Shown here: positions 1 through 6,136 of the stretch, piece by piece
How the letters are laid out: every line of letters starts with the position of its first letter
How positions within the stretch are numbered: position 1 is the stretch's first letter
Source: a virus
Lineage: Duplodnaviria > Heunggongvirae > Uroviricota > Caudoviricetes
Length of the DNA: 6,136 nt
Strand: one strand, 5' to 3'
IMG/VR virus record: IMGVR_UViG_3300029073_000029
The notes under the pieces: model-generated
The model's database searches: none
What the model saw: only the letters and a program-made list of their open reading frames with translations
What the model was told of the DNA's origin: nothing
Program-made: the position numbers and the translations under genes

Positions 1-22
1 CGAAGGTGAGTTGATGGCTCAT
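1..22 (-). CDS. 5' end of a minus-strand ORF (MSHQLTF...) that runs off the left edge; sits where P4 beta follows gop
   Basis: ATG at 22..20 (plus-strand cat), AGAGG about 6 nt upstream, frame open to position 1. It starts 41 nt after the TGA of the 63..1082 gene. Only 7 codons are visible, so identity is unknown. Confidence 0.3.
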
Positions 23-62
23 GATGTCCCTCTGGGATGCGCTCCGGATGAATATGATGATC

Positions 63-1082
63 TCATATCAGGAACTTGTTCGCACCTTCCCTAGCAGAAC
101 GGACATCGACTGGTGTAAGGAAGAATTTATTCTTCCATTTTTGATTTTTAAATCTTGAGGATAGCCTTGCTATTAAAGATGACTTTCCATTTCCTGAACC
201 GCCTATAAGTGATAGGACTCTACTTTGAGAGCTATTTCCTCTAACATTCTCAAGATAATCCCAAACTTCTTTCTGTATATATTCGCGACCAACAAAGTCT
301 TTCGGCTGACATGGCTTATAATCCATAAAATCGTCAGCAAGAATTATTTCACTGACAATTTCCCTTTCGTAATTTTCAGATAATTTTGAAGACGAAACAG
401 TTTGTTCCGGTTCAGATAATATATAAAAATCAGTTACTTCCAACCCTTCAAAAAGCCCTTGCTCCTTTATAATATCACTTATGCGACTGACACTTGGAAT
501 TTTACTATTTTTATTTATAGCGAACGGCACCACTCTTATAGGGCTACCATTTTCAACTTCTTGCAAAAGCCAAGTCATTTCTATTTCAGGATGAACTAAA
601 AGTGTTGCACTAGTATATTTTGCCGGAATGTCATCTGTTGGAATATCCTCAACCTTACCTGTTGCAAGTATAGATATAAGAATCTCTTTTTTATCAAAAA
701 AAGAATAATCTATACGCTCATCAAGTCTATAATCCTCAAGCGTTGACTGAGCATCTTTACCCAAATCAGAAATTGAAAAAAGTGCAATTTTTTTAACTCT
801 CAACCTAAATGCTTGAGAAAATGCCAAATCAACCACAGATGAATCAACTTTTTGCTGCATGAATTTACATTCTACATACAGCTTTTCATTTGATGGTGTA
901 TGAGTAGCCTGAATATCAATTTCCATGCCAGATTTTCTGACTTCCATACCATCAATTCTATACGATTGCCGGCGGAGTATATCAGCGCAAAAATTCTCGA
1001 AAAACTTCCCTCTCGAGGTATTGGAATAATTACTAGGTACACAAACTATCAAATCTTTATTCAGTGGTAACGGCCTGGCCAT
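63..1082 (-). CDS. AT-rich cargo protein, 339 aa: N-terminal Mrr-like PD-(D/E)xK nuclease motif plus C-terminal start of an AAA_16/STAND-type P-loop NTPase that appears truncated
   Basis: Complete ORF with AAGGAG about 8 nt upstream of the ATG at 1082. Seen: GKFFENFCADILRRQSY...GMEIDIQA...KLYVECKF (hD...ExK pattern typical of Mrr_cat restriction-endonuclease domains) and FVGREYIQ...RVLSLIGGSGNGKSSLIARL (Walker A, at about 203..180) followed by only about 38 residues before TGA at 65..63. Clearly AT-rich by eye compared with flanking DNA. Position corresponds to gop in P4 (inference). Confidence 0.8.
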   Translation of the reverse strand: MARPLPLNKDLIVCVPSNYSNTSRGKFFENFCADILRRQSYRIDGMEVRKSGMEIDIQATHTPSNEKLYVECKFMQQKVDSSVVDLAFSQAFRLRVKKIALFSISDLGKDAQSTLEDYRLDERIDYSFFDKKEILISILATGKVEDIPTDDIPAKYTSATLLVHPEIEMTWLLQEVENGSPIRVVPFAINKNSKIPSVSRISDIIKEQGLFEGLEVTDFYILSEPEQTVSSSKLSENYEREIVSEIILADDFMDYKPCQPKDFVGREYIQKEVWDYLENVRGNSSQSRVLSLIGGSGNGKSSLIARLSSRFKNQKWKNKFFLTPVDVRSAREGANKFLI

Positions 1083-1097
1083 TTATACACTCCTTAT

Positions 1098-1127
1098 CTC
1101 ATATCCTTTTGACAAGTAAGATATCAA
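1098..1127 (-). promoter_or_regulatory. Candidate sigma70 promoter for the cargo gene
   Basis: On the minus strand, TTGATA (plus 1127..1122), an 18-nt spacer, then TATGAG (plus 1103..1098), just upstream of the AAGGAG RBS. Motif match only. Confidence 0.25.
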
Positions 1128-1202
1128 CCTCGAGTTTCAGAAACCAGTATCTTGCGCATATTTACGACATCAAAACTTTTGGTTATGCACCCACAGCGCG
1201 CA

Positions 1203-1221
1203 GTGCTTTCCCCGCCTCGCC
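1203..1221. other. cos: cos site: 19-nt P2/P4-type cohesive-end sequence
   Basis: Plus strand gtgctttccccgcctcgcc is the reverse complement of GGCGAGGCGGGGAAAGCAC, which I recall as the P2/P4 cohesive end. The following bases on the minus strand (TGCGCGCTG) also match my recollection of the P2 left end. It lies right after psu, as in P4. Confidence 0.7.
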
Positions 1222-1323
1222 CGCCCGCTTTGCGGGGCGGTTTTAATGCAGTTGCACTGACACGCTCAGACCGCGCCGGGAATGGTGCGGTCTGCAGAAA
1301 ATGAGGCAGGAAAACGCATGCAA

Positions 1324-1355
1324 AGCCATGCACCTTATCGATGCATGGCTTTTTT
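1324..1355. terminator. Perfect 9-bp hairpin with T-tract between psu and cos; possibly bidirectional
   Basis: AGCCATGCA (1324..1332), 9-nt loop, TGCATGGCT (1342..1350), then TTTTT (1351..1355) on the plus strand. On the minus strand the stem is preceded by A-run and followed by UUGCAUGCGUUUU, a weaker U-tract. Confidence 0.5.
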
Positions 1356-1385
1356 CAGTAAAAACGGGAGGATTTTCGGGGAATT

Positions 1386-1958
1386 TTACACAGACTGACG
1401 TGATGCCAGTTGCGCACTTTTACGCGAAAAAATCATGTTCTGCGCAGGGGTGAATTTTTCACGGCTGTCATCCACCGAAGCCGCGTCAGGCCTGAATCCG
1501 ATGGTCGTTAAAATGTCACTATCCTGTGCGGAATAATTAATTTTTTCCCCCTTCGCAAGCCAGGACAGAAGGGCTTCACGCAGGGCATCTGTGGCACGCT
1601 GTATGGCACAGTTTCGGGCAATGGCCGTCAGCTCACTGTAGCCCATCAGCTCCGGTGCCAGTGCCGCCGCCAGTGCTGTGCCGTGCTGCTGCATAAAATC
1701 ATTCAGCCGGTCGCGGATGCTGATGTGCTGAACGGCTTCATGCGAACGAATATAACGACCGGCGGCCTGATTCACCTGCCATTTTCTGACTTCGATAATA
1801 TTGCGTAATTCGTCCAGGCGACTGACGTTTCTGCCTTCTCCTGACTGAATCCGCAGATATTCCTGTTCGGCCGCAGCCAGCTCATTTTTGCGTTGCAGCC
1901 ATGCTGCTTTGTTATTCTGACAGGTGTCAAAGGCCTGCTGTAAGGCTGTGCTTTCCAT
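1386..1958 (-). CDS. psu: Psu-like protein (polarity suppression / capsid decoration), 190 aa
   Basis: Complete ORF of exactly 190 aa, the length I recall for P4 Psu. Third gene of a sid-delta-psu string, immediately upstream of cos as in P4. No distinctive motif was checked, so the call rests on size and synteny. Confidence 0.7.
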   Translation of the reverse strand: MESTALQQAFDTCQNNKAAWLQRKNELAAAEQEYLRIQSGEGRNVSRLDELRNIIEVRKWQVNQAAGRYIRSHEAVQHISIRDRLNDFMQQHGTALAAALAPELMGYSELTAIARNCAIQRATDALREALLSWLAKGEKINYSAQDSDILTTIGFRPDAASVDDSREKFTPAQNMIFSRKSAQLASRQSV

Positions 1959-2031
1959 CGTTATCTCTTTCTCATCATGCTGAAGAATAAAAATACGGTG
2001 TGCGGCGACGGCCGGTGTTAACCGGCAGCCC

Positions 2032-2532
2032 TCATTCCAGACGCAGCGAATATGATTGTGTTTTTAACCGTACTGGCGGCAGTTCCTGTTTTTCATGCAG
2101 GCTTTCTGCAAGCTCGTCCGGCGTGACCGGGCGGACAATGAAGCGGTTGATGGTCTGAAGCGTTTTAAACACCAGACCACAGCCCGGATCCGTGCACACA
2201 TAAAAACGCTCGGTGACTTCCTGAGACAGACGCCGCGATGTTCTTGACAGCGCAAGGCCTTTACATCTCCGACAACAATATCCGGTAACAAGCATTCTTT
2301 TCGGGCGCTTCATGCTGCCGGAGGCTGACGTCAGTGAATCGCGGTATCTCTGTTTGCCTGAAATGTATTCCATTCCTGAATCTTTACAGTCAGAGAAAAA
2401 GCTTTCACTCGCTTCAAATGTCGCAGAGCAATAAATATTCCGGCACTGTGCAATCATTATCTTGGTGCCATCGTCCATGAAATGTGCGCGACGGGTGTGA
2501 GCAACATGTCCACACGACGGGCAGTAAATCAT
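2032..2532 (-). CDS. delta: Delta late-gene transcriptional activator, 166 aa, with two Ogr-type zinc fingers
   Basis: Two copies of the C-X2-C-X22-C-X4-C finger characteristic of the Ogr/Delta family: CPSC...(22)...CRNIYC and CRRC...(22)...CTDPGC. Start ATG overlaps the sid stop as ATGA (plus strand 2529..2532 tcat). Length matches the 166 aa I recall for P4 Delta. Confidence 0.9.
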   Translation of the reverse strand: MIYCPSCGHVAHTRRAHFMDDGTKIMIAQCRNIYCSATFEASESFFSDCKDSGMEYISGKQRYRDSLTSASGSMKRPKRMLVTGYCCRRCKGLALSRTSRRLSQEVTERFYVCTDPGCGLVFKTLQTINRFIVRPVTPDELAESLHEKQELPPVRLKTQSYSLRLE

Positions 2533-3263
2533 GACAGCAGTCCTCTGGCCTTAAGCTTTGCTCCCTGCTGGTCTATTTTGTCCTGCCACACCTTGCGCTG
2601 TGCCGGTGTGCCTGCCACCTCATAATCCATGTGCGGGAGTGTTGCCGCTGACAGTCCGGTCAGCCGGAGAACCGGCTCGCCGGTGAGGCTGATTTGCATC
2701 TGTTTTATTTTCTGTTCCAGCGATGATTTCACCTGCTGCATGACAGCCTTTTCCGGTGCGACGTAGCCCTGATGGCCGGTGGTGTTGGCGAGCGGATTTT
2801 CCTGTACCAGGATGCTCAGATGCATTGCCCGGACAAGCGCCTCACAGGTTTCATTCAGGGCGTGTTCCAGCTCATGCTCTGCATACAGACTCAGCAGGTG
2901 ATGATGTGCCTTCCGGTAGGCGGTGGCCGTGCTGTCACACGCCCCTTTCAGGCGTTCGCGTTCAAAATTCAGCACCACGGCCAGATTGTCATATTCCTGT
3001 ACCAGCTCCCGGCGTGCCACGCGCTCAATGTGGCGCTGTTTCAGCTCGTCGCTCAGGACACCACCGGCTGCACGAAAGGCCGTGCGCCAGTCGTCAGCGT
3101 CGTTTCCGTCGGCCTGCGCCAGCGCATTTTTTTCCTGCTCTGCCCGTTCAATGGCCGTGACGGTCTCATCCATCAGGCGGGCGTTCTCAAGATGGGCGGC
3201 TCTGGCCTTTTCCAGTTGTGCCAGTGCGGGTTTCAGATATTCAGGGATAGTGTGGTCAGACAT
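2529..3263 (-). CDS. sid: Sid-like external scaffold / capsid size determination protein, 244 aa
   Basis: The ORF-track start at 3281 is a GTG. The ATG at 3263 has AGGAG about 7 nt upstream and gives 244 aa, the length I recall for P4 Sid. Helix-prone composition. First gene of the sid-delta-psu order, downstream of TGT-N12-ACA sites. Confidence 0.8.
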   Translation of the reverse strand: MSDHTIPEYLKPALAQLEKARAAHLENARLMDETVTAIERAEQEKNALAQADGNDADDWRTAFRAAGGVLSDELKQRHIERVARRELVQEYDNLAVVLNFERERLKGACDSTATAYRKAHHHLLSLYAEHELEHALNETCEALVRAMHLSILVQENPLANTTGHQGYVAPEKAVMQQVKSSLEQKIKQMQISLTGEPVLRLTGLSAATLPHMDYEVAGTPAQRKVWQDKIDQQGAKLKARGLLS

Positions 3264-3297
3264 TTTCCGGCTCCTCGTCACTTCAGGTTAAGAAAAT

Positions 3298-3353
3298 TGT
3301 GACGTACACCGGACAGCAACACGACGCATTGCAGATGTGCCAGCCCTGACACA
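3298..3353 (-). promoter_or_regulatory. Psid-like late promoter with two TGT-N12-ACA activator sites
   Basis: TGT(3298..3300)-N12-ACA(3313..3315) and TGT(3336..3338)-N12-ACA(3351..3353). The distal site is centred about 55 bp and the proximal about 17 bp upstream of a transcription start assumed near 3290. Ogr/Delta-activated P2/P4 late promoters have this element centred near -55. Confidence 0.5.
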
Positions 3354-3408
3354 GGAGACTCATCCTCACACCGGCAAGCCAGGAAAAGGTCGCAGGAAAA
3401 ACCGGCTT

Positions 3409-3577
3409 ACTGTTTGTTTTTTTATATTTTACTGTTCACCTCTGTTCACCTTAATAAAAAAGATAAGTAATACAGTAAGTTAAAGGATGAACAATCGCAG
3501 TAATGACTGTTCACCGTCTGTTCACCACTGTTCACCCGCTCATGGACTTTTTGTGCTGTTTACTACTGTTTGTTTTT
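3409..3577. other. ori: Putative replication origin with alpha-type iterons
   Basis: Five perfect direct TGTTCACC octamers at 3433..3440, 3443..3450, 3508..3515, 3519..3526 and 3529..3536, spaced about 10-11 bp, separated by an AT-rich spacer and bracketed by a 13-bp direct repeat ACTGTTTGTTTTT (3409..3421 and 3565..3577). I recall TGTTCACC as the type I iteron bound by P4 alpha at ori and crr. Confidence 0.6.
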
Positions 3578-3640
3578 ATTAATTCGCCGGGAATGAATAA
3601 GAAGAAACGATTTGTATTTCACTATAAAAATTACAAATTG

Positions 3641-3670
3641 CTTTAAGTGGCTTTAAATGACTTTAAGTGG
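3641..3670. repeat. Three tandem 10-bp repeats CTTTAA(G/A)TG(G/A)
   Basis: ctttaagtgg / ctttaaatga / ctttaagtgg, head to tail with helical-turn periodicity, about 150 bp upstream of vis. Function not determined; candidate regulator-binding array. Confidence 0.6.
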
Positions 3671-3695
3671 AAATGAACAAAAAACACACAACCAT

Positions 3696-3713
3696 TGTAA
3701 GGCTGCCGGAACA
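3696..3713 (+). promoter_or_regulatory. Candidate activator site of a PLL-like late promoter driving vis
   Basis: TGT(3696..3698)-N12-ACA(3711..3713), centred about 110 bp upstream of the vis ATG, which would place a transcription start near 3755..3760. Confidence 0.4.
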
Positions 3714-3815
3714 AATCCCCCCTGTTGCGTCTGCTGAAAATATTCACAAAATAAAGCGCTACCCGAAGCCGGACGGACTTATCCGGTGCTGTATGGACAT
3801 TAACGAGGTAGCCCG

Positions 3816-4082
3816 ATGCAAGCTGTTTTTTCTTCCCCGTCTCCCGCCCCTGTGACGCCACTGATGCCGCTGCCGGACATCACACAGGAGCGTTTTTTAC
3901 GTCTTCCGGAAGTGATGCACCTGTGCGGCCTGTCACGCTCGACCATCTATGAACTCATCCGTAAGGGGGAATTTCCGCCGCAGGTGAGTCTTGGCGGTAA
4001 AAATGTGGCCTGGCTGCACTCTGAAGTCACCGCATGGATGGCCGGCCGCATTGCCGGACGCAAACGGGGGTACGACGCATGA
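3816..4082 (+). CDS. vis: AlpA/Vis-family DNA-binding regulator (excisionase-like helix-turn-helix), 88 aa
   Basis: [51 protein letters not shown] matches the AlpA-family pattern (LP.V....G.SRST.Y.....G.FP....LG.....W...EV..W). GAGG lies 7 nt upstream of the ATG at 3816. An alternative in-frame ATG at 3864 would give 72 aa. Confidence 0.85.
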
Positions 4083-4117
4083 TGATGCCTGTTCTGCAAA
4101 AAGTCCCTTTTTCTGGC

Positions 4118-4147
4118 TTGCCTTTTTCCGGCATTTGCGGATATAGT
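4118..4147 (+). promoter_or_regulatory. Candidate sigma70 promoter (PLE-like) upstream of the immunity-like leader
   Basis: TTGCCT (4118..4123), 18-nt spacer, TATAGT (4142..4147). Motif match only. Confidence 0.35.
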
Positions 4148-4154
4148 TTTTCCG

Positions 4155-4471
4155 CTGCCGCAAAATCGGCAGCCGGGCGTGAGAACCCGTGTAACTCGAA
4201 GGCGACATATGACGCGCCATGCGTCTTTTTTTGTGTCGCAATCAACGCCACAGAGCGCCAGATTATGGTGTGGCGTGTGGTTTGCCGTGCAGGTATGATC
4301 CTGTTCGCAATCGCATGTTATGCCACTGAGTCAATGGTAGCTCAGGCGGGGCAGCCTCCGGGCTGGCCGGTATTCTTCGAGGCCGGTATTCTCACCCCCG
4401 TCTGGGCTATCGCCATCGAGCGTGAGAACTCCGGCGATAGCAGTTATTTGCTACTCGAAGGAGGCTGCCTT
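4155..4471 (+). ncRNA. Untranslated leader with repeated boxes and complementary segments; candidate cI-type immunity RNA region
   Basis: GCGTGAGAAC occurs twice (4177..4186, 4420..4429), each followed by ACTCGAAGG (4194..4202, 4453..4461; the second abuts the RBS of the 65-aa ORF). Between them, CTTCGAGG (4375..4382) and TTCTCAC (4389..4395) are complementary to those boxes, within a 12-nt direct repeat GGCCGGTATTCT (4365..4376, 4381..4392). No convincing ORF with RBS. Boundaries are approximate. Confidence 0.35.
4211..4232 (+). terminator. Short GC hairpin followed by T7; candidate intrinsic terminator within the leader
   Basis: GACGC (4211..4215), 5-nt loop, GCGTC (4221..4225), then TTTTTTT (4226..4232). 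Confidence 0.4.
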
Positions 4472-4669
4472 ATGGCTACAACCCTTACCCCCTCACACCC
4501 TGAATTTGTCTTTGTGTTTGCGGCTGTCCGTCGCGCAGACCGTCATCCCCGTATCTGCATGCTTCGCACCGTCGCCGGTGATGAACGCAGCGCCCGCCGT
4601 TCCCTTGTCCGTGACTATGTGCTCTCCCTTGCTGCCCGTCTGCCGGTGGTGGAGGTGTCCCGTGCGTAA
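4472..4669 (+). CDS. Small protein, 65 aa, first ORF after the leader (position comparable to P4 kil)
   Basis: GAAGGAGG ends about 7 nt before the ATG at 4472. It is the 3' part of the 211-aa track ORF, whose upstream portion lacks an RBS and overlaps vis and the leader. Confidence 0.55.
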
Positions 4670-4949
4670 TAAAAAAGCCCCTCAGACCGTCTCAGCACGT
4701 CATGACGCCCGTGAACACCTCAGCATTGAGGCTTACCATAAGCTCAACCGCGCCAGCGCCGTATCCCAGTTTGTTGGGGGTGATTTGATTCACCGTGAAC
4801 TCTCCGGCCTGCATCAGCTCTACATTCCGCATATTTTCAGCTACCTGAATGAAGATATTGATTTTGTGCTGAATGAGCTGAAAGCCAAAGGCCTGTGCCG
4901 CGATTTTCTCGCCCAGCAGAAAGACCGGGGAGACAGGACGCATGTTTGA
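4662..4949 (+). CDS. Small protein, 95 aa, GTG start (size compatible with P4 epsilon, not verified)
   Basis: GGAGG (4651..4655) sits 6 nt upstream of the GTG at 4662. It overlaps the stop of the 65-aa ORF by 8 nt and its own TGA (4947..4949) overlaps the next ATG. Confidence 0.6.
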
Positions 4950-5397
4950 TTTTCCCCAGCCCGGTGAGATTTACCGTTCTGCCGGTTTTCCCGATGTGGC
5001 CGTGGTCGGCATTCTGGAAGACGGTATTCCGTGGGAAATGCCGTACCGCTGCCCGGACATTGTCTGGAACCCGTACCGCCGTAAATTCAGTATCCTTGTG
5101 CGTATCCTCGATGACGGGCGCACCACAGACATCCCGCTGGGGCGTTTTCTGCGGGAATTTACCTGTGACCGTCCTGACCTGTTTAAACGCAGCCCCGTAA
5201 ACCGGCATGCGGTACTGAAAGAAATGGCCGGAGACCCGGAATTACAGAAATGGCGGGAGAAATATCTGGATATTTACCCGCAGGACACTGTTCCGGCCAG
5301 CCGGGCGGCACCGGTGGCGCGGGAATGGCGGGAAATTCCCCGCACGGAGCCTGACCCGGAAATCACCCCGGATAACAGTTACCGCAATTATCTGTAA
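4942..5397 (+). CDS. Hypothetical protein, 151 aa (same length as P4 orf151)
   Basis: Complete ORF, start overlaps the upstream stop (translational coupling), purine-rich stretch upstream. Length and position within the left operon match my recollection of P4 orf151. Confidence 0.75.
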   Translation: MFDFPQPGEIYRSAGFPDVAVVGILEDGIPWEMPYRCPDIVWNPYRRKFSILVRILDDGRTTDIPLGRFLREFTCDRPDLFKRSPVNRHAVLKEMAGDPELQKWREKYLDIYPQDTVPASRAAPVAREWREIPRTEPDPEITPDNSYRNYL

Positions 5398-5470
5398 TTA
5401 AAAAACGATACCCGAAAAATTAAATGTGCGTATTCGCGCAGGGATACGCACGTCTTCAGGAGACGCAGAT

Positions 5471-5536
5471 ATGCCTTATCAGTTAATGCAACCGGCACGG
5501 AATGCAGTCATCTGTCACAGGGAGGAAAACAAATGA
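5471..5536 (+). CDS. Possible 21-codon leader micro-ORF ([21 protein letters not shown]) coupled to the next gene
   Basis: AGGAGA (5458..5463) lies 7 nt upstream of the ATG at 5471. Its stop TGA (5534..5536) overlaps the ATG (5533..5535) of the 106-aa ORF as ATGA. Too short to judge by composition. Confidence 0.25.
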
Positions 5537-5853
5537 AAACACCCTTACCGCCCGTCTTACGCGCTGCCCTTTACCGTCGCGCTGTCGCCTGTGCCTGGCT
5601 GACCGTGTGCGAACGTCAGCACCGCTACCCGCATCTCACCCTTGAGTCACTGGAGGCGGCCATCGCCGCTGAGCTGGAAGGCTTTTATCTGCGCCAGCAC
5701 GGTGAGGAAAAAGGGCGTCAGATAGCCTGTGCCCTGCTGGAAGATTTAATGGAATCCGGCCCCCTGAAGGCCGCGCCGTCGCTGTCCTTTCTCGGGCTGG
5801 TTGTGATGGATGAACTCTGTGCCCGTCACATAAAAGCGCCGGTACTGCACTGA
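5533..5853 (+). CDS. Hypothetical protein, 106 aa, immediately upstream of the primase
   Basis: GGGAGG ends 8 nt before the ATG. Complete ORF ending 14 nt before the alpha start. Whether this or the 95-aa ORF is the epsilon (anti-repressor) equivalent cannot be decided from sequence alone. Confidence 0.75.
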
Positions 5854-5867
5854 AGGAGAACAACACC

Positions 5868-6136
5868 ATGAAAATGAACGTAACCGCCACCGTCAGCCAT
5901 GCGCTCGGCCACTGGCCGCGTATTCTCCCGGCGCTGGGGATTCAGGTGCTGAAGAACCGTCATCAGCCCTGTCCGGTCTGTGGCGGGAGTGACCGCTTCC
6001 GTTTTGATGACAGGGAGGGGCGTGGCACCTGGTACTGCAATCAGTGTGGTGCCGGTGACGGCCTGAAACTGGTTGAAAAGGTGTTTGGTGTTTCCCCGTC
6101 CGACGCGGCCGCAAAGGTGGCTGCCGTGACCGGCTG
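5868..6136 (+). CDS. alpha: Alpha-type primase/helicase replication protein, N-terminal part only (runs off the window)
   Basis: AAGGAG (5853..5858) lies 9 nt upstream of the ATG at 5868. Translation MKMNVTATVSHALGHWPRILPALGIQVLKNRHQPCPVCGGSDRFRFDDREGRGTWYCNQCGAGDGLKLVEKVFG carries a CxxC...CxxC zinc ribbon of the kind found at the N terminus of P4-type primases. No stop within the window. Confidence 0.85.
   Translation, partial: MKMNVTATVSHALGHWPRILPALGIQVLKNRHQPCPVCGGSDRFRFDDREGRGTWYCNQCGAGDGLKLVEKVFGVSPSDAAAKVAAVTG

What the first reader, a model, noticed from the sequence alone, without database searches (positions are those of the whole stretch)
3409..3577. Iteron-type origin embedded between the divergent late promoters
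Seen: five same-orientation TGTTCACC octamers in two clusters (2 + 3) about 60 bp apart, an AT-rich spacer containing degenerate inverted copies, and a flanking 13-bp direct repeat ACTGTTTGTTTTT on each side. Established: I recall TGTTCACC as the iteron bound by the P4 alpha primase-helicase at ori and crr. Inference: this is the replication origin; the T-rich flanking repeats could be the unwinding element.
Basis: partly seen in the sequence, partly recalled or inferred. Interest (0 to 1): 0.5.

Follow-up and report, generated by a model that had tools for sequence, protein, structure and literature searches.

The report
Known replication origin of satellite P4
This stretch is the already described replication origin (ori1) of a P4-type satellite prophage of E. 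coli, 99% identical to phage P4's annotated origin, so it is real but ordinary.

Summary
There are five same-strand TGTTCACC octamers (3433, 3443, 3508, 3519, 3529), one degenerate inverted copy (3486-3493), a 35-bp AT-rich spacer, and an exact flanking direct repeat that is 14 nt long (TACTGTTTGTTTTT), not 13. Window 1222-6134 is 97.8% identical to phage P4, and the sid-vis intergenic region is 99% identical. GenBank X51522 annotates this exact place as 'origin of DNA replication', with six 'ori type 1 repeats' at the same positions and the same octamer in crr. An element 100% identical to the window encodes a full alpha primase-helicase whose C-terminus matches the solved P4 origin-binding domain (1KA8), followed by a crr. 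The iteron layout (start-to-start spacing 10/65/11/10, 35-bp spacer) is kept in about 100 distinct P4-like elements and in six other enterobacterial genera. The secondary idea, that the T-rich flank repeats are the unwinding element, is not supported. The right copy is not conserved and only 13 of 98 distinct origins share such a word. The least stable and strongly conserved segment is the spacer. Novelty: already known. A side lead is that the adjacent 'type 2 repeats' match P2 Cox boxes and are replaced by 186 Apl-type boxes in other satellites.

The parts
3433..3450 (+). Left pair of type I iterons (TGTTCACC at 3433-3440 and 3443-3450)
   Evidence: Exact matches. They map onto the 'ori type 1 repeat' features of X51522 at 9406-9413 and 9396-9403. 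They are conserved across P4-like elements at 1.69 bits per position.
3451..3485 (.). 35-bp AT-rich spacer (17% G+C, A-rich on the iteron strand). It is the best candidate for the site of first melting.
   Evidence: It is the least stable 30-mer of the P4 part of the window (3450-3479, -29.6 kcal/mol). Its length of 35 bp is kept in E. coli elements and in five of six other enterobacterial genera; Kosakonia has 36. Its sequence is conserved at 1.66 bits, and the core GATAAGTAATACA at 1.86 bits.
3486..3493 (-). Inverted type I iteron, here the variant TGTTCATC (P4 has the perfect TGTTCACC)
   Evidence: It maps onto the X51522 feature 9353-9360. The A variant is found in 4 of 120 IMG/VR loci, and also in E. 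coli Z1626, Kosakonia and Kluyvera.
3508..3536 (+). Right cluster of three type I iterons (3508-3515, 3519-3526, 3529-3536)
   Evidence: Exact matches. They map onto X51522 features 9331-9338, 9320-9327 and 9310-9317. The two copies not fixed by my search pattern (3519-3526 and 3529-3536) score 1.90 and 1.96 bits. Conservation drops immediately after 3537.
3408..3424 (+). Left T-rich element (TACTGTTTGTTTTTTTA), which includes the left copy of the flank repeat
   Evidence: CTGTTTGTTTTTTTA is nearly invariant even in elements only 70% identical overall. It is kept as a T-tract in other genera. It scores 1.65 bits.
3564..3577 (+). Right copy of the 14-nt flank repeat. It is specific to the P4 lineage and is not conserved.
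   Evidence: Relatives have ACTTTTTATTTTT, ACTGTTTATTTTT or unrelated sequence. It scores 0.87 bits, and a shared word of >=13 nt occurs in only 13 of 98 distinct origins. Only strand-specific T-richness is kept downstream of the iterons (0.38-0.52 T).
3638..3666 (-). 'ori type 2 repeats' of the GenBank record. They are three tandem 10-bp units that match the P2 Cox-box consensus. They lie outside the finding's coordinates.
   Evidence: X51522 features 9176-9205. TTAAAGCAA, TTAAAGCCA and TTAAAGTCA match TTAAA(G/C)NC(A/C). The consensus, and the fact that Cox binds upstream of P4 PLL, come from PMC3936717.
3336..3353 (.). TGT-N12-ACA site on the sid side, the putative Ogr/Delta activator site of Psid. 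A second such site lies at 3298-3315.
   Evidence: TGT...ACA is kept with a variable spacer in distant elements. The assignment to Psid is an inference from the known -55 consensus (my own knowledge).
3696..3713 (.). TGT-N12-ACA site on the vis side, the putative activator site of PLL
   Evidence: It lies about 110 bp upstream of the vis/orf88 ATG at 3816. The assignment is an inference.
5868..6136 (+). 5' end of the alpha gene (the initiator, a primase-helicase), cut by the end of the window
   Evidence: 89 of 89 codons are identical to P4 alpha. In a 100% identical element, alpha is 777 aa and residues 671-770 match PDB 1KA8 at E = 1e-63.

Best explanation
The region is ori1 of a P4-type satellite prophage, the orthologue of the phage P4 origin.

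Mechanism, largely from published work on P4 that I recall rather than tested here:
- The element's own alpha protein binds the type I iterons (core T-N-TTCAC-N) through its C-terminal winged-helix domain.
- The six sites sit in helical phase on either side of a 35-bp AT-rich spacer, so bound alpha assembles on one face of the DNA.
- The helicase part of alpha opens the duplex, most probably in the spacer.
- The primase part of alpha lays down primers, and host DNA polymerase III completes bidirectional theta replication.
- A second iteron-bearing site, crr, downstream of alpha, is needed in cis.
- Cnr (orf106) restrains alpha in the plasmid state.

What is shown here: sequence orthology, the annotation of the orthologous site, conservation of the layout, and the presence of a cognate alpha and crr in an identical element.

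What is inferred: alpha binding, the site of melting, and activity of this particular copy.
For: - Window 1222-6134 is 97.8% identical to P4. The sid-vis intergenic region is 99% identical.
- X51522 annotates the orthologous site as 'origin of DNA replication' with six 'ori type 1 repeats' that map exactly onto the window's octamers. It annotates the same repeats in crr.
- Five exact octamers against 0.24 expected.
- Spacing of 10/65/11/10 with a 35-bp spacer in nearly every relative examined: all but one of the E. coli P4-like elements (96-70% identity) and Enterobacter, Phytobacter and Kluyvera. TW10598, Mangrovibacter and Erwinia differ by 1 bp in the long interval (64), and Kosakonia has 9/66 with a 36-bp spacer.
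- Iterons and spacer are the best conserved non-coding columns in 99 distinct IMG/VR origins.
- An element 100% identical to window 91-6136 (E. coli EC1722-1) encodes a 777-aa alpha whose residues 671-770 match PDB 1KA8 at E = 1e-63.
- That element also has a crr-like pair of 122-bp direct repeats, carrying TGTTCACC in both orientations, downstream of alpha.
- PMC4234260 states that P4 alpha binds the origin repeats through a winged-helix domain and then unwinds and primes.
- The spacer is the least stable duplex in the P4 part of the window.
- No DnaA box or IHF consensus (<=1 mismatch) lies in 3400-3700. This is consistent with an origin that does not use DnaA.
Against: - No binding or replication assay exists for this copy.
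- The inverted iteron carries a C-to-T change in its core (TGTTCATC). This variant is rare (4 of 120 IMG/VR loci). As I recall, deleting any single iteron inactivates P4 oriI, so this copy could be weakened. Against that, the variant recurs in E. coli Z1626, Kosakonia and Kluyvera, which argues that it is tolerated.
- The window stops inside alpha, so alpha and crr of this very element are known only through an identical element elsewhere.
- The primary P4 replication papers could not be read with the tools.
Confidence: 0.92

Rival explanations
1. The T-rich 13/14-nt direct repeats flanking the iterons are the DNA unwinding element of the origin.
For: - Both copies lie in low-stability DNA: 3407-3436 at -31.2 and 3556-3585 at -31.8 kcal/mol per 30 bp.
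- The repeat is unlikely by chance.
- The left T-tract is strongly conserved.
- Strand-specific T-richness downstream of the iterons is kept across genera.
- The repeat shares the ACTGTT head with the iterons: 5 of the 6 + strand ACTGTT in the window are in the origin.
Against: - The right copy is not conserved (0.87 bits).
- Only 13 of 98 distinct origins share a >=13-nt word between their flanks, and the two copies vary independently.
- The spacer between the clusters is less stable (-29.6) and is conserved in both length and sequence.
- From memory, and not verifiable here: Tocchetti et al. 1999 (J Virol 73:7308) limited ori1 to 123 bp containing the six iterons and a 35-bp AT-rich region. 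A fragment of that size cannot include the right copy, and cannot include all of the left one.
Confidence: 0.1
2. The site is an auxiliary alpha-binding region like crr, used for looping or copy-number control, or an operator through which alpha modulates the divergent late promoters. On this reading it is not the place where replication starts.
For: - The same octamer occurs in crr, which is required in cis but is not the start site.
- The iterons lie between the two late-promoter activator sites.
Against: - Synteny and 99% identity place it at ori1, not crr.
- crr is defined by two 120-bp direct repeats downstream of alpha. These are absent here and present elsewhere in the identical element.
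- The GenBank record, which rests on the original mapping, calls this site the origin.
- A regulatory side effect of alpha binding on Psid or PLL is not excluded, but it would be additional to origin function.
Confidence: 0.04
3. This copy is an inactive relic. The element is a decaying prophage whose origin no longer fires.
For: - The core of the inverted iteron is mutated.
- The neighbouring accessory gene is interrupted by an IS5 end in the window's source.
Against: - All other iterons, the spacings and the spacer are intact.
- sid, delta, psu, vis, cnr and the start of alpha are intact open reading frames.
- The same origin sequence occurs in 3 IMG/VR loci, and the same element is found whole in two complete genomes.
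- The IS5 hit is in the non-essential region.
Confidence: 0.08

Closest known systems
Phage P4 ori (ori1), GenBank X51522 9086-9809, type I repeats at 9310-9413
   Same: The position is the same (between sid and orf88/vis). The five direct plus one inverted octamers, the spacing, the 35-bp AT-rich spacer, the flanking 14-nt repeat and the three type 2 repeats are all the same. The intergenic region is 99% identical.
   Different: There is one substitution in the inverted iteron (GGTGAACA to GATGAACA). There are a few substitutions just right of the last iteron and near the PLL activator site.
P4 crr (cis replication region), X51522 4291-4590
   Same: It carries the same TGTTCACC octamer, annotated as 'ori type 1 repeat'. 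A crr-like region is present in the identical element.
   Different: crr consists of two 120-bp direct repeats 60 bp apart, with octamers in both orientations. It lies downstream of alpha and is an auxiliary site rather than the start site. The window region has no such long repeats.
Iteron-type plasmid origins (pSC101, R6K gamma, P1, F oriS; Rep plus iterons)
   Same: Both have directly repeated initiator sites at helical spacing next to an AT-rich stretch. Both have extra iteron sets elsewhere that could pair with the origin.
   Different: The P4 initiator is itself a primase-helicase with a C-terminal winged-helix domain, not a Rep that recruits DnaB. No DnaA box or IHF site is found in or next to the iterons. 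The iterons are only 8 bp long. A distant second site is required in cis.
SaPI/PICI satellite origins (two iteron sets flanking an AT-rich region, bound by a Rep helicase; my own knowledge)
   Same: The general architecture and logic are shared: a satellite-encoded initiator-helicase and iteron clusters on both sides of an AT-rich segment.
   Different: The sequence and the protein family are unrelated, and no crr-type second site is involved.

Membership tests
P4-type ori1 (alpha-dependent origin of P4-like satellites) | Six type I octamers TGTTCACC (five direct, one inverted) spaced near the helical repeat | tested here: met
   There are five exact direct copies and one inverted copy with 1 mismatch. 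Start-to-start spacing is 10/65/11/10.
P4-type ori1 (alpha-dependent origin of P4-like satellites) | 35-bp AT-rich region inside the iteron array | tested here: met
   3451-3485 is 35 bp with 17% G+C, and it is the least stable duplex in the P4 part of the window.
P4-type ori1 (alpha-dependent origin of P4-like satellites) | Orthologous position and sequence: between sid and orf88/vis, alignable to P4 ori | tested here: met
   99% identity to X51522 over the intergenic region, and the annotated features coincide.
P4-type ori1 (alpha-dependent origin of P4-like satellites) | Cognate alpha primase-helicase with the C-terminal origin-binding winged-helix domain encoded by the same element | tested here: met
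   The window holds alpha codons 1-89, identical to P4. A 100% identical element has the full 777-aa alpha, and residues 671-770 match PDB 1KA8 at E = 1e-63. The C-terminus of this very copy lies outside the window.
P4-type ori1 (alpha-dependent origin of P4-like satellites) | crr with type I repeats in cis, about 4.5 kb away | tested here: inconclusive
   crr is not inside the window. In the identical element, two 122-bp direct repeats with TGTTCACC lie about 4.8 kb from the origin.
P4-type ori1 (alpha-dependent origin of P4-like satellites) | Alpha binds the iterons, and the fragment supports alpha-dependent replication | not testable with these tools
   This needs EMSA or footprinting and a plasmid replication assay. 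For P4 itself it is reported in the literature (PMC4234260; the primary papers are not held).
Classical Rep/iteron plasmid origin | DnaA boxes and/or an IHF site adjoining the iterons | tested here: not met
   No TTWTNCACA or WATCAANNNNTTR match with <=1 mismatch in 3400-3700.

The most novel reading that the evidence does not exclude
The origin core may hold more than iterons plus a passive AT-rich melt zone. The spacer core (GATAAGTAATACA) and the left T-tract are conserved at the sequence level across genera as strongly as the iterons. This suggests a further specific site, such as a primer start, a helicase-loading strand, or an unknown factor. Next to the origin lies a swappable array of operators for the helper phage's excisionase/regulator: Cox boxes in P4 and in this window, and 186 Apl-type TTGCCA boxes in many other satellites. 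That array would match each satellite to the helper that can wake it. I did not find this described in the papers I could search, but I did not search exhaustively.
Probability: 0.3. Interest if true: 0.45.

Novelty: already known. Interest (0 to 1): 0.1.

Why it matters
As an origin, this adds nothing new. P4 ori1, its type I iterons and their recognition by alpha have been in the sequence records since the 1980s and 1990s, and this copy is 99% identical. The check is still useful in four ways.
- It confirms that a reader working from sequence alone recognised the origin correctly.
- It corrects the idea that the flanking T-rich repeats are the unwinding element.
- It documents that the iteron geometry (10/65/11/10 with a 35-bp spacer) is almost invariant across P4-like satellites of several genera.
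- It raises a separate lead: the repeat array beside the origin looks like a helper-specific sensor that differs between satellites.

Tried and rejected
- Primary P4 papers. I tried to read Ziegelin 1993 and 1995, Tocchetti 1999 and the Lindqvist 1993 review by PubMed or PMC id. None is held. Several full-text searches returned only indirect mentions. What I state about the minimal ori1, Cnr and DnaA independence is therefore from memory and is marked as such.
- Scan of genome contigs for three tandem TGTTCAC. Only the enterobacterial and Avibacterium loci were usable.
- IHF or DnaA site as the reason the spacer is conserved. No consensus match was found.
- Covariation of the 'type 2' array with a satellite protein. 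Array classes 0, 2 and 3 all have P4 proteins at >=97% identity, and Vis is identical across classes. A satellite-encoded binder is therefore unlikely, which led to the helper-RDF idea.
- Sigma-70 promoter scan of 3200-3900. It found nothing, as expected for activator-dependent late promoters.
- My first guess that ORF 63-1082 was the IS5 transposase. That was wrong: it is the N-terminal part of an nSTAND1 NTPase gene cut by an IS5 end.

Full report
**1. Observation.**
TGTTCACC occurs five times in the window, all on the + strand, at 3433, 3443, 3508, 3519 and 3529. Only 0.24 are expected, and none of 200 dinucleotide-preserving shuffles reaches five. The two clusters are 57 bp apart. Start-to-start spacings are 10, 65, 11 and 10 bp, close to the helical repeat.

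Between the clusters lies a 35-bp stretch with 17% G+C (3451-3485). It is followed by a single inverted near-copy, GATGAACA (TGTTCATC on the - strand, 3486-3493). At up to two mismatches there is no other inverted copy in the spacer, so 'copies' should be singular.

ACTGTTTGTTTTT is present at 3409-3421 and 3565-3577. The exact repeat is 14 nt (TACTGTTTGTTTTT) and extends to 21 nt at 86% identity. An exact repeat of 13 nt or more arose in 0.7% of Markov resamples of the 534-bp intergenic region.

**2. What it is.**
Window 1222-6134 matches phage P4 (X51522) 11624-6703 in reverse orientation at 97.8% identity. The sid-vis intergenic region is 99% identical.

The P4 record annotates 'origin of DNA replication' at 9086-9809. 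It carries six 'ori type 1 repeat' features that map one-to-one onto the window's five direct octamers and the inverted one. It also carries three 'ori type 2 repeat' features that map to about window 3640-3670. The same record marks ten 'ori type 1 repeats' inside crr, the cis replication region downstream of alpha. An older record (X02534, 1984) already lists these direct repeats.

The only difference inside the iteron array is G to A in the inverted iteron.

**3. Context in the element.**
The window holds these genes in P4 order:
- psu, delta and sid on the - strand;
- the origin;
- vis/orf88, the immunity region, epsilon, orf151, cnr/orf106 and the first 89 codons of alpha on the + strand. 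Those 89 codons are identical to P4 alpha.

Window 91-6136 is 100% identical to prophages in E. coli STEC346 and EC1722-1. In EC1722-1, alpha is 777 aa, and residues 671-770 match the solved P4 origin-binding domain, PDB 1KA8, at E = 1e-63. Downstream of alpha lie two 122-bp direct repeats, 182 bp apart, carrying TGTTCACC in both orientations. This is a crr. The cognate initiator and the second cis site therefore exist in an identical element, although both lie outside the window itself.

**4. Late promoters.**
TGT-N12-ACA is, from my own knowledge, the consensus of the Ogr/Delta activator site centred near -55 of P2 and P4 late promoters. It occurs four times in the window, and three of those flank the origin:
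- 3336-3353 and 3298-3315 on the sid side. These are consistent with a start near 3290 on the - strand and a second site near -18.
- 3696-3713 on the vis side. This is consistent with a start near 3760 on the + strand.

The iterons lie between them. No sigma-70 consensus promoter is found in 3200-3900, as expected for activator-dependent promoters. The promoter assignments are inference.

**5. Conservation.**
The 534-bp region is found in 1067 of 5426 complete E. coli genomes, always on the chromosome. Three further comparisons follow.

Alignment with P4 and eight E. coli elements, from 96% down to 70% identity:
- The TGTTCAC core is invariant at the second left iteron, the inverted iteron and all three right iterons. 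The first left iteron reads TATTCAC in the three most distant elements.
- The spacer is nearly invariant.
- The left T-tract CTGTTTGTTTTTTTA is nearly invariant.
- Conservation collapses right after the last iteron.

A pattern scan of species-representative genomes gave the same 2 + inverted 1 + 3 layout in Enterobacter, Phytobacter, Kosakonia, Mangrovibacter, Kluyvera and Erwinia. Spacing is 10/65/11/10 (plus or minus 1), with a 35-bp spacer in five of the six (36 bp in Kosakonia). A looser version appears in Avibacterium.

A scan of IMG/VR gave 120 loci with 99 distinct origin cores. In ungapped register, and counting only columns not fixed by my search pattern:

| Segment | Information (bits per position) |
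|---|---|
| Iterons not fixed by the pattern | 1.69-1.96 |
| Spacer 3451-3479 | 1.66 |
| Spacer core GATAAGTAATACA | 1.86 |
| Left 13-mer | 1.65 |
| Right 13-mer | 0.87 |
| 3537-3564 | 0.46 |

Within the iteron, positions 2 and 8 are the least constrained.

**6. The flanking repeats.**
Only 13 of 98 distinct origins share a word of 13 nt or more between the left and right flanks. The two copies also vary independently. Examples are a left ACTGTTTATTTTT paired with a right ACTGTTTGTTTTT, and a right ACTTTTTATTTTT. The repeat as a pair is thus a feature of the P4 lineage, not a conserved part of the origin.

Two things are conserved: the left T-tract, and a general T-richness of the iteron strand downstream (0.38-0.52 T).

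A nearest-neighbour stability profile puts the least stable 30-mer of the P4 part of the window in the spacer (3450-3479, -29.6 kcal/mol). Next come 3610-3639 (-30.0), the left flank (-31.2) and the right flank (-31.8).

From memory, Tocchetti et al. 1999 limited ori1 to 123 bp holding the six iterons and a 35-bp AT-rich region, and found that 6- or 10-bp insertions inactivate it. The 35-bp figure and the invariant spacing seen here agree with that. I could not read the paper.

The T-rich repeat shares the ACTGTT head with the iterons, so a weak half-site role is possible but untested.

**7. Mechanism.**
Published work on P4 is summarised in PMC4234260: alpha binds the repeats at the origin through a winged-helix domain, then unwinds and primes. 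The remaining details come from my own knowledge:
- theta replication;
- the requirement for crr in cis;
- looping between ori and crr;
- control by Cnr;
- independence from DnaA, DnaG and DnaB.

No DnaA box or IHF consensus lies in 3400-3700, which fits an origin that does not use the host initiator.

**8. Rivals.**
- A crr-like or purely regulatory site is unlikely, given the synteny, the 99% identity to ori1 and the absence of the 120-bp repeats.
- A dead relic is possible but unlikely. Only one iteron base differs, and the variant recurs in other lineages.
- Chance is excluded.

**9. Verdict.**
The finding is real and correctly interpreted, but it is the already known P4 ori1. Novelty: already known. 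Interest: low (0.1).

**10. Side observations.**
The 'type 2 repeats' match the P2 Cox-box consensus TTAAA(G/C)NC(A/C) on the - strand at 3638-3666, with 10-bp spacing. PMC3936717 places the Cox-binding site upstream of P4 PLL.

In 118 IMG/VR satellites this segment falls into 24 sequence classes. Many classes carry other tandem arrays with a 10-11-bp period. Several have 3-6 same-orientation TT[GA][CT]CA boxes, against a background of 0.17 per 150 nt. These resemble the annotated Apl operator arrays of phage 186 at attP and pR-pL.

The classes do not co-vary with any satellite protein. The main survey of P4-like satellites does not mention Cox or Apl. This suggests a modular sensor for the helper's excisionase/regulator next to the origin. 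It lies outside the finding and is only partly followed up.

Noticed in passing
window 3638-3666 (- strand); IMG/VR loci L135-L254, segment from 200 to 105 nt upstream of the vis start: GenBank's 'ori type 2 repeats' match the P2 Cox-box consensus (TTAAAGCAA, TTAAAGCCA, TTAAAGTCA at 10-bp spacing). In other P4-like satellites this segment is replaced by different tandem arrays with a 10-11-bp period. Several of these are TTGCCA-type boxes like the Apl operators of phage 186. The classes do not co-vary with satellite proteins. A possible reading is a swappable sensor for the helper phage's excisionase/regulator.
   Followed up: partly
window 3451-3485, core 3462-3474: The AT-rich spacer is conserved in sequence, not only in composition. 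GATAAGTAATACA scores 1.86 bits across 99 distinct origins, and ATAAGTAATACAG is kept in five of six other enterobacterial genera (Erwinia differs at two positions). No IHF or DnaA consensus explains this.
   Followed up: partly
window 3378-3400: The block GCCAGGAAAAGGTCGCAGGAAAA, between the Psid activator site and the origin, is conserved across genera as GCCAG.AAA.GGTC.CAGGAAA. It contains a CAGGAAAA direct repeat. Its function is unknown; one possibility is a site for Vis or another regulator.
   Followed up: no
window 1-96 and 63-1082 (- strand): The first ~96 bases are an IS5 end (99% identical to insH-flanking sequence). It interrupts a gene that in the otherwise identical prophage of E. 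coli EC1722-1 is a 913-aa nSTAND1-domain NTPase. The ORF at 63-1082 is its N-terminal 339 aa. It lies in the variable accessory region next to cos.
   Followed up: partly
window 1188-1268: This short stretch is 90-95% identical to the cos region of P2-type phages. It lies at the junction of P4 right-end homology (which begins at window 1222). This is the satellite's packaging site, which mimics the helper's.
   Followed up: no
L011 (E. coli 2013C-3264) and two IMG/VR cores listed: Iteron copy number varies through gain of a 10-bp unit. One element has three iterons in the left cluster. Two have four in the right cluster (…CACCACTGTTCACCACTGTTCACC…).
   Followed up: partly
L023 (Avibacterium sp. 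21-586), oriented positions about 505-618: The same TGTTCACC iterons occur in a 2 + inverted 1 + 3 layout in a member of the Pasteurellaceae. The AT-rich spacer is 57 bp and the spacing is different. The flanking genes were not examined.
   Followed up: no
L005 (E. coli Combat11I9) versus L014 (EC1722-1): Elements with identical origin regions carry different accessory cargo next to cos: an AAA ATPase plus HNH endonuclease in one, and an nSTAND1 NTPase in the other. L005 lies next to ssrA. This is consistent with a variable accessory slot in P4-like satellites.
   Followed up: no
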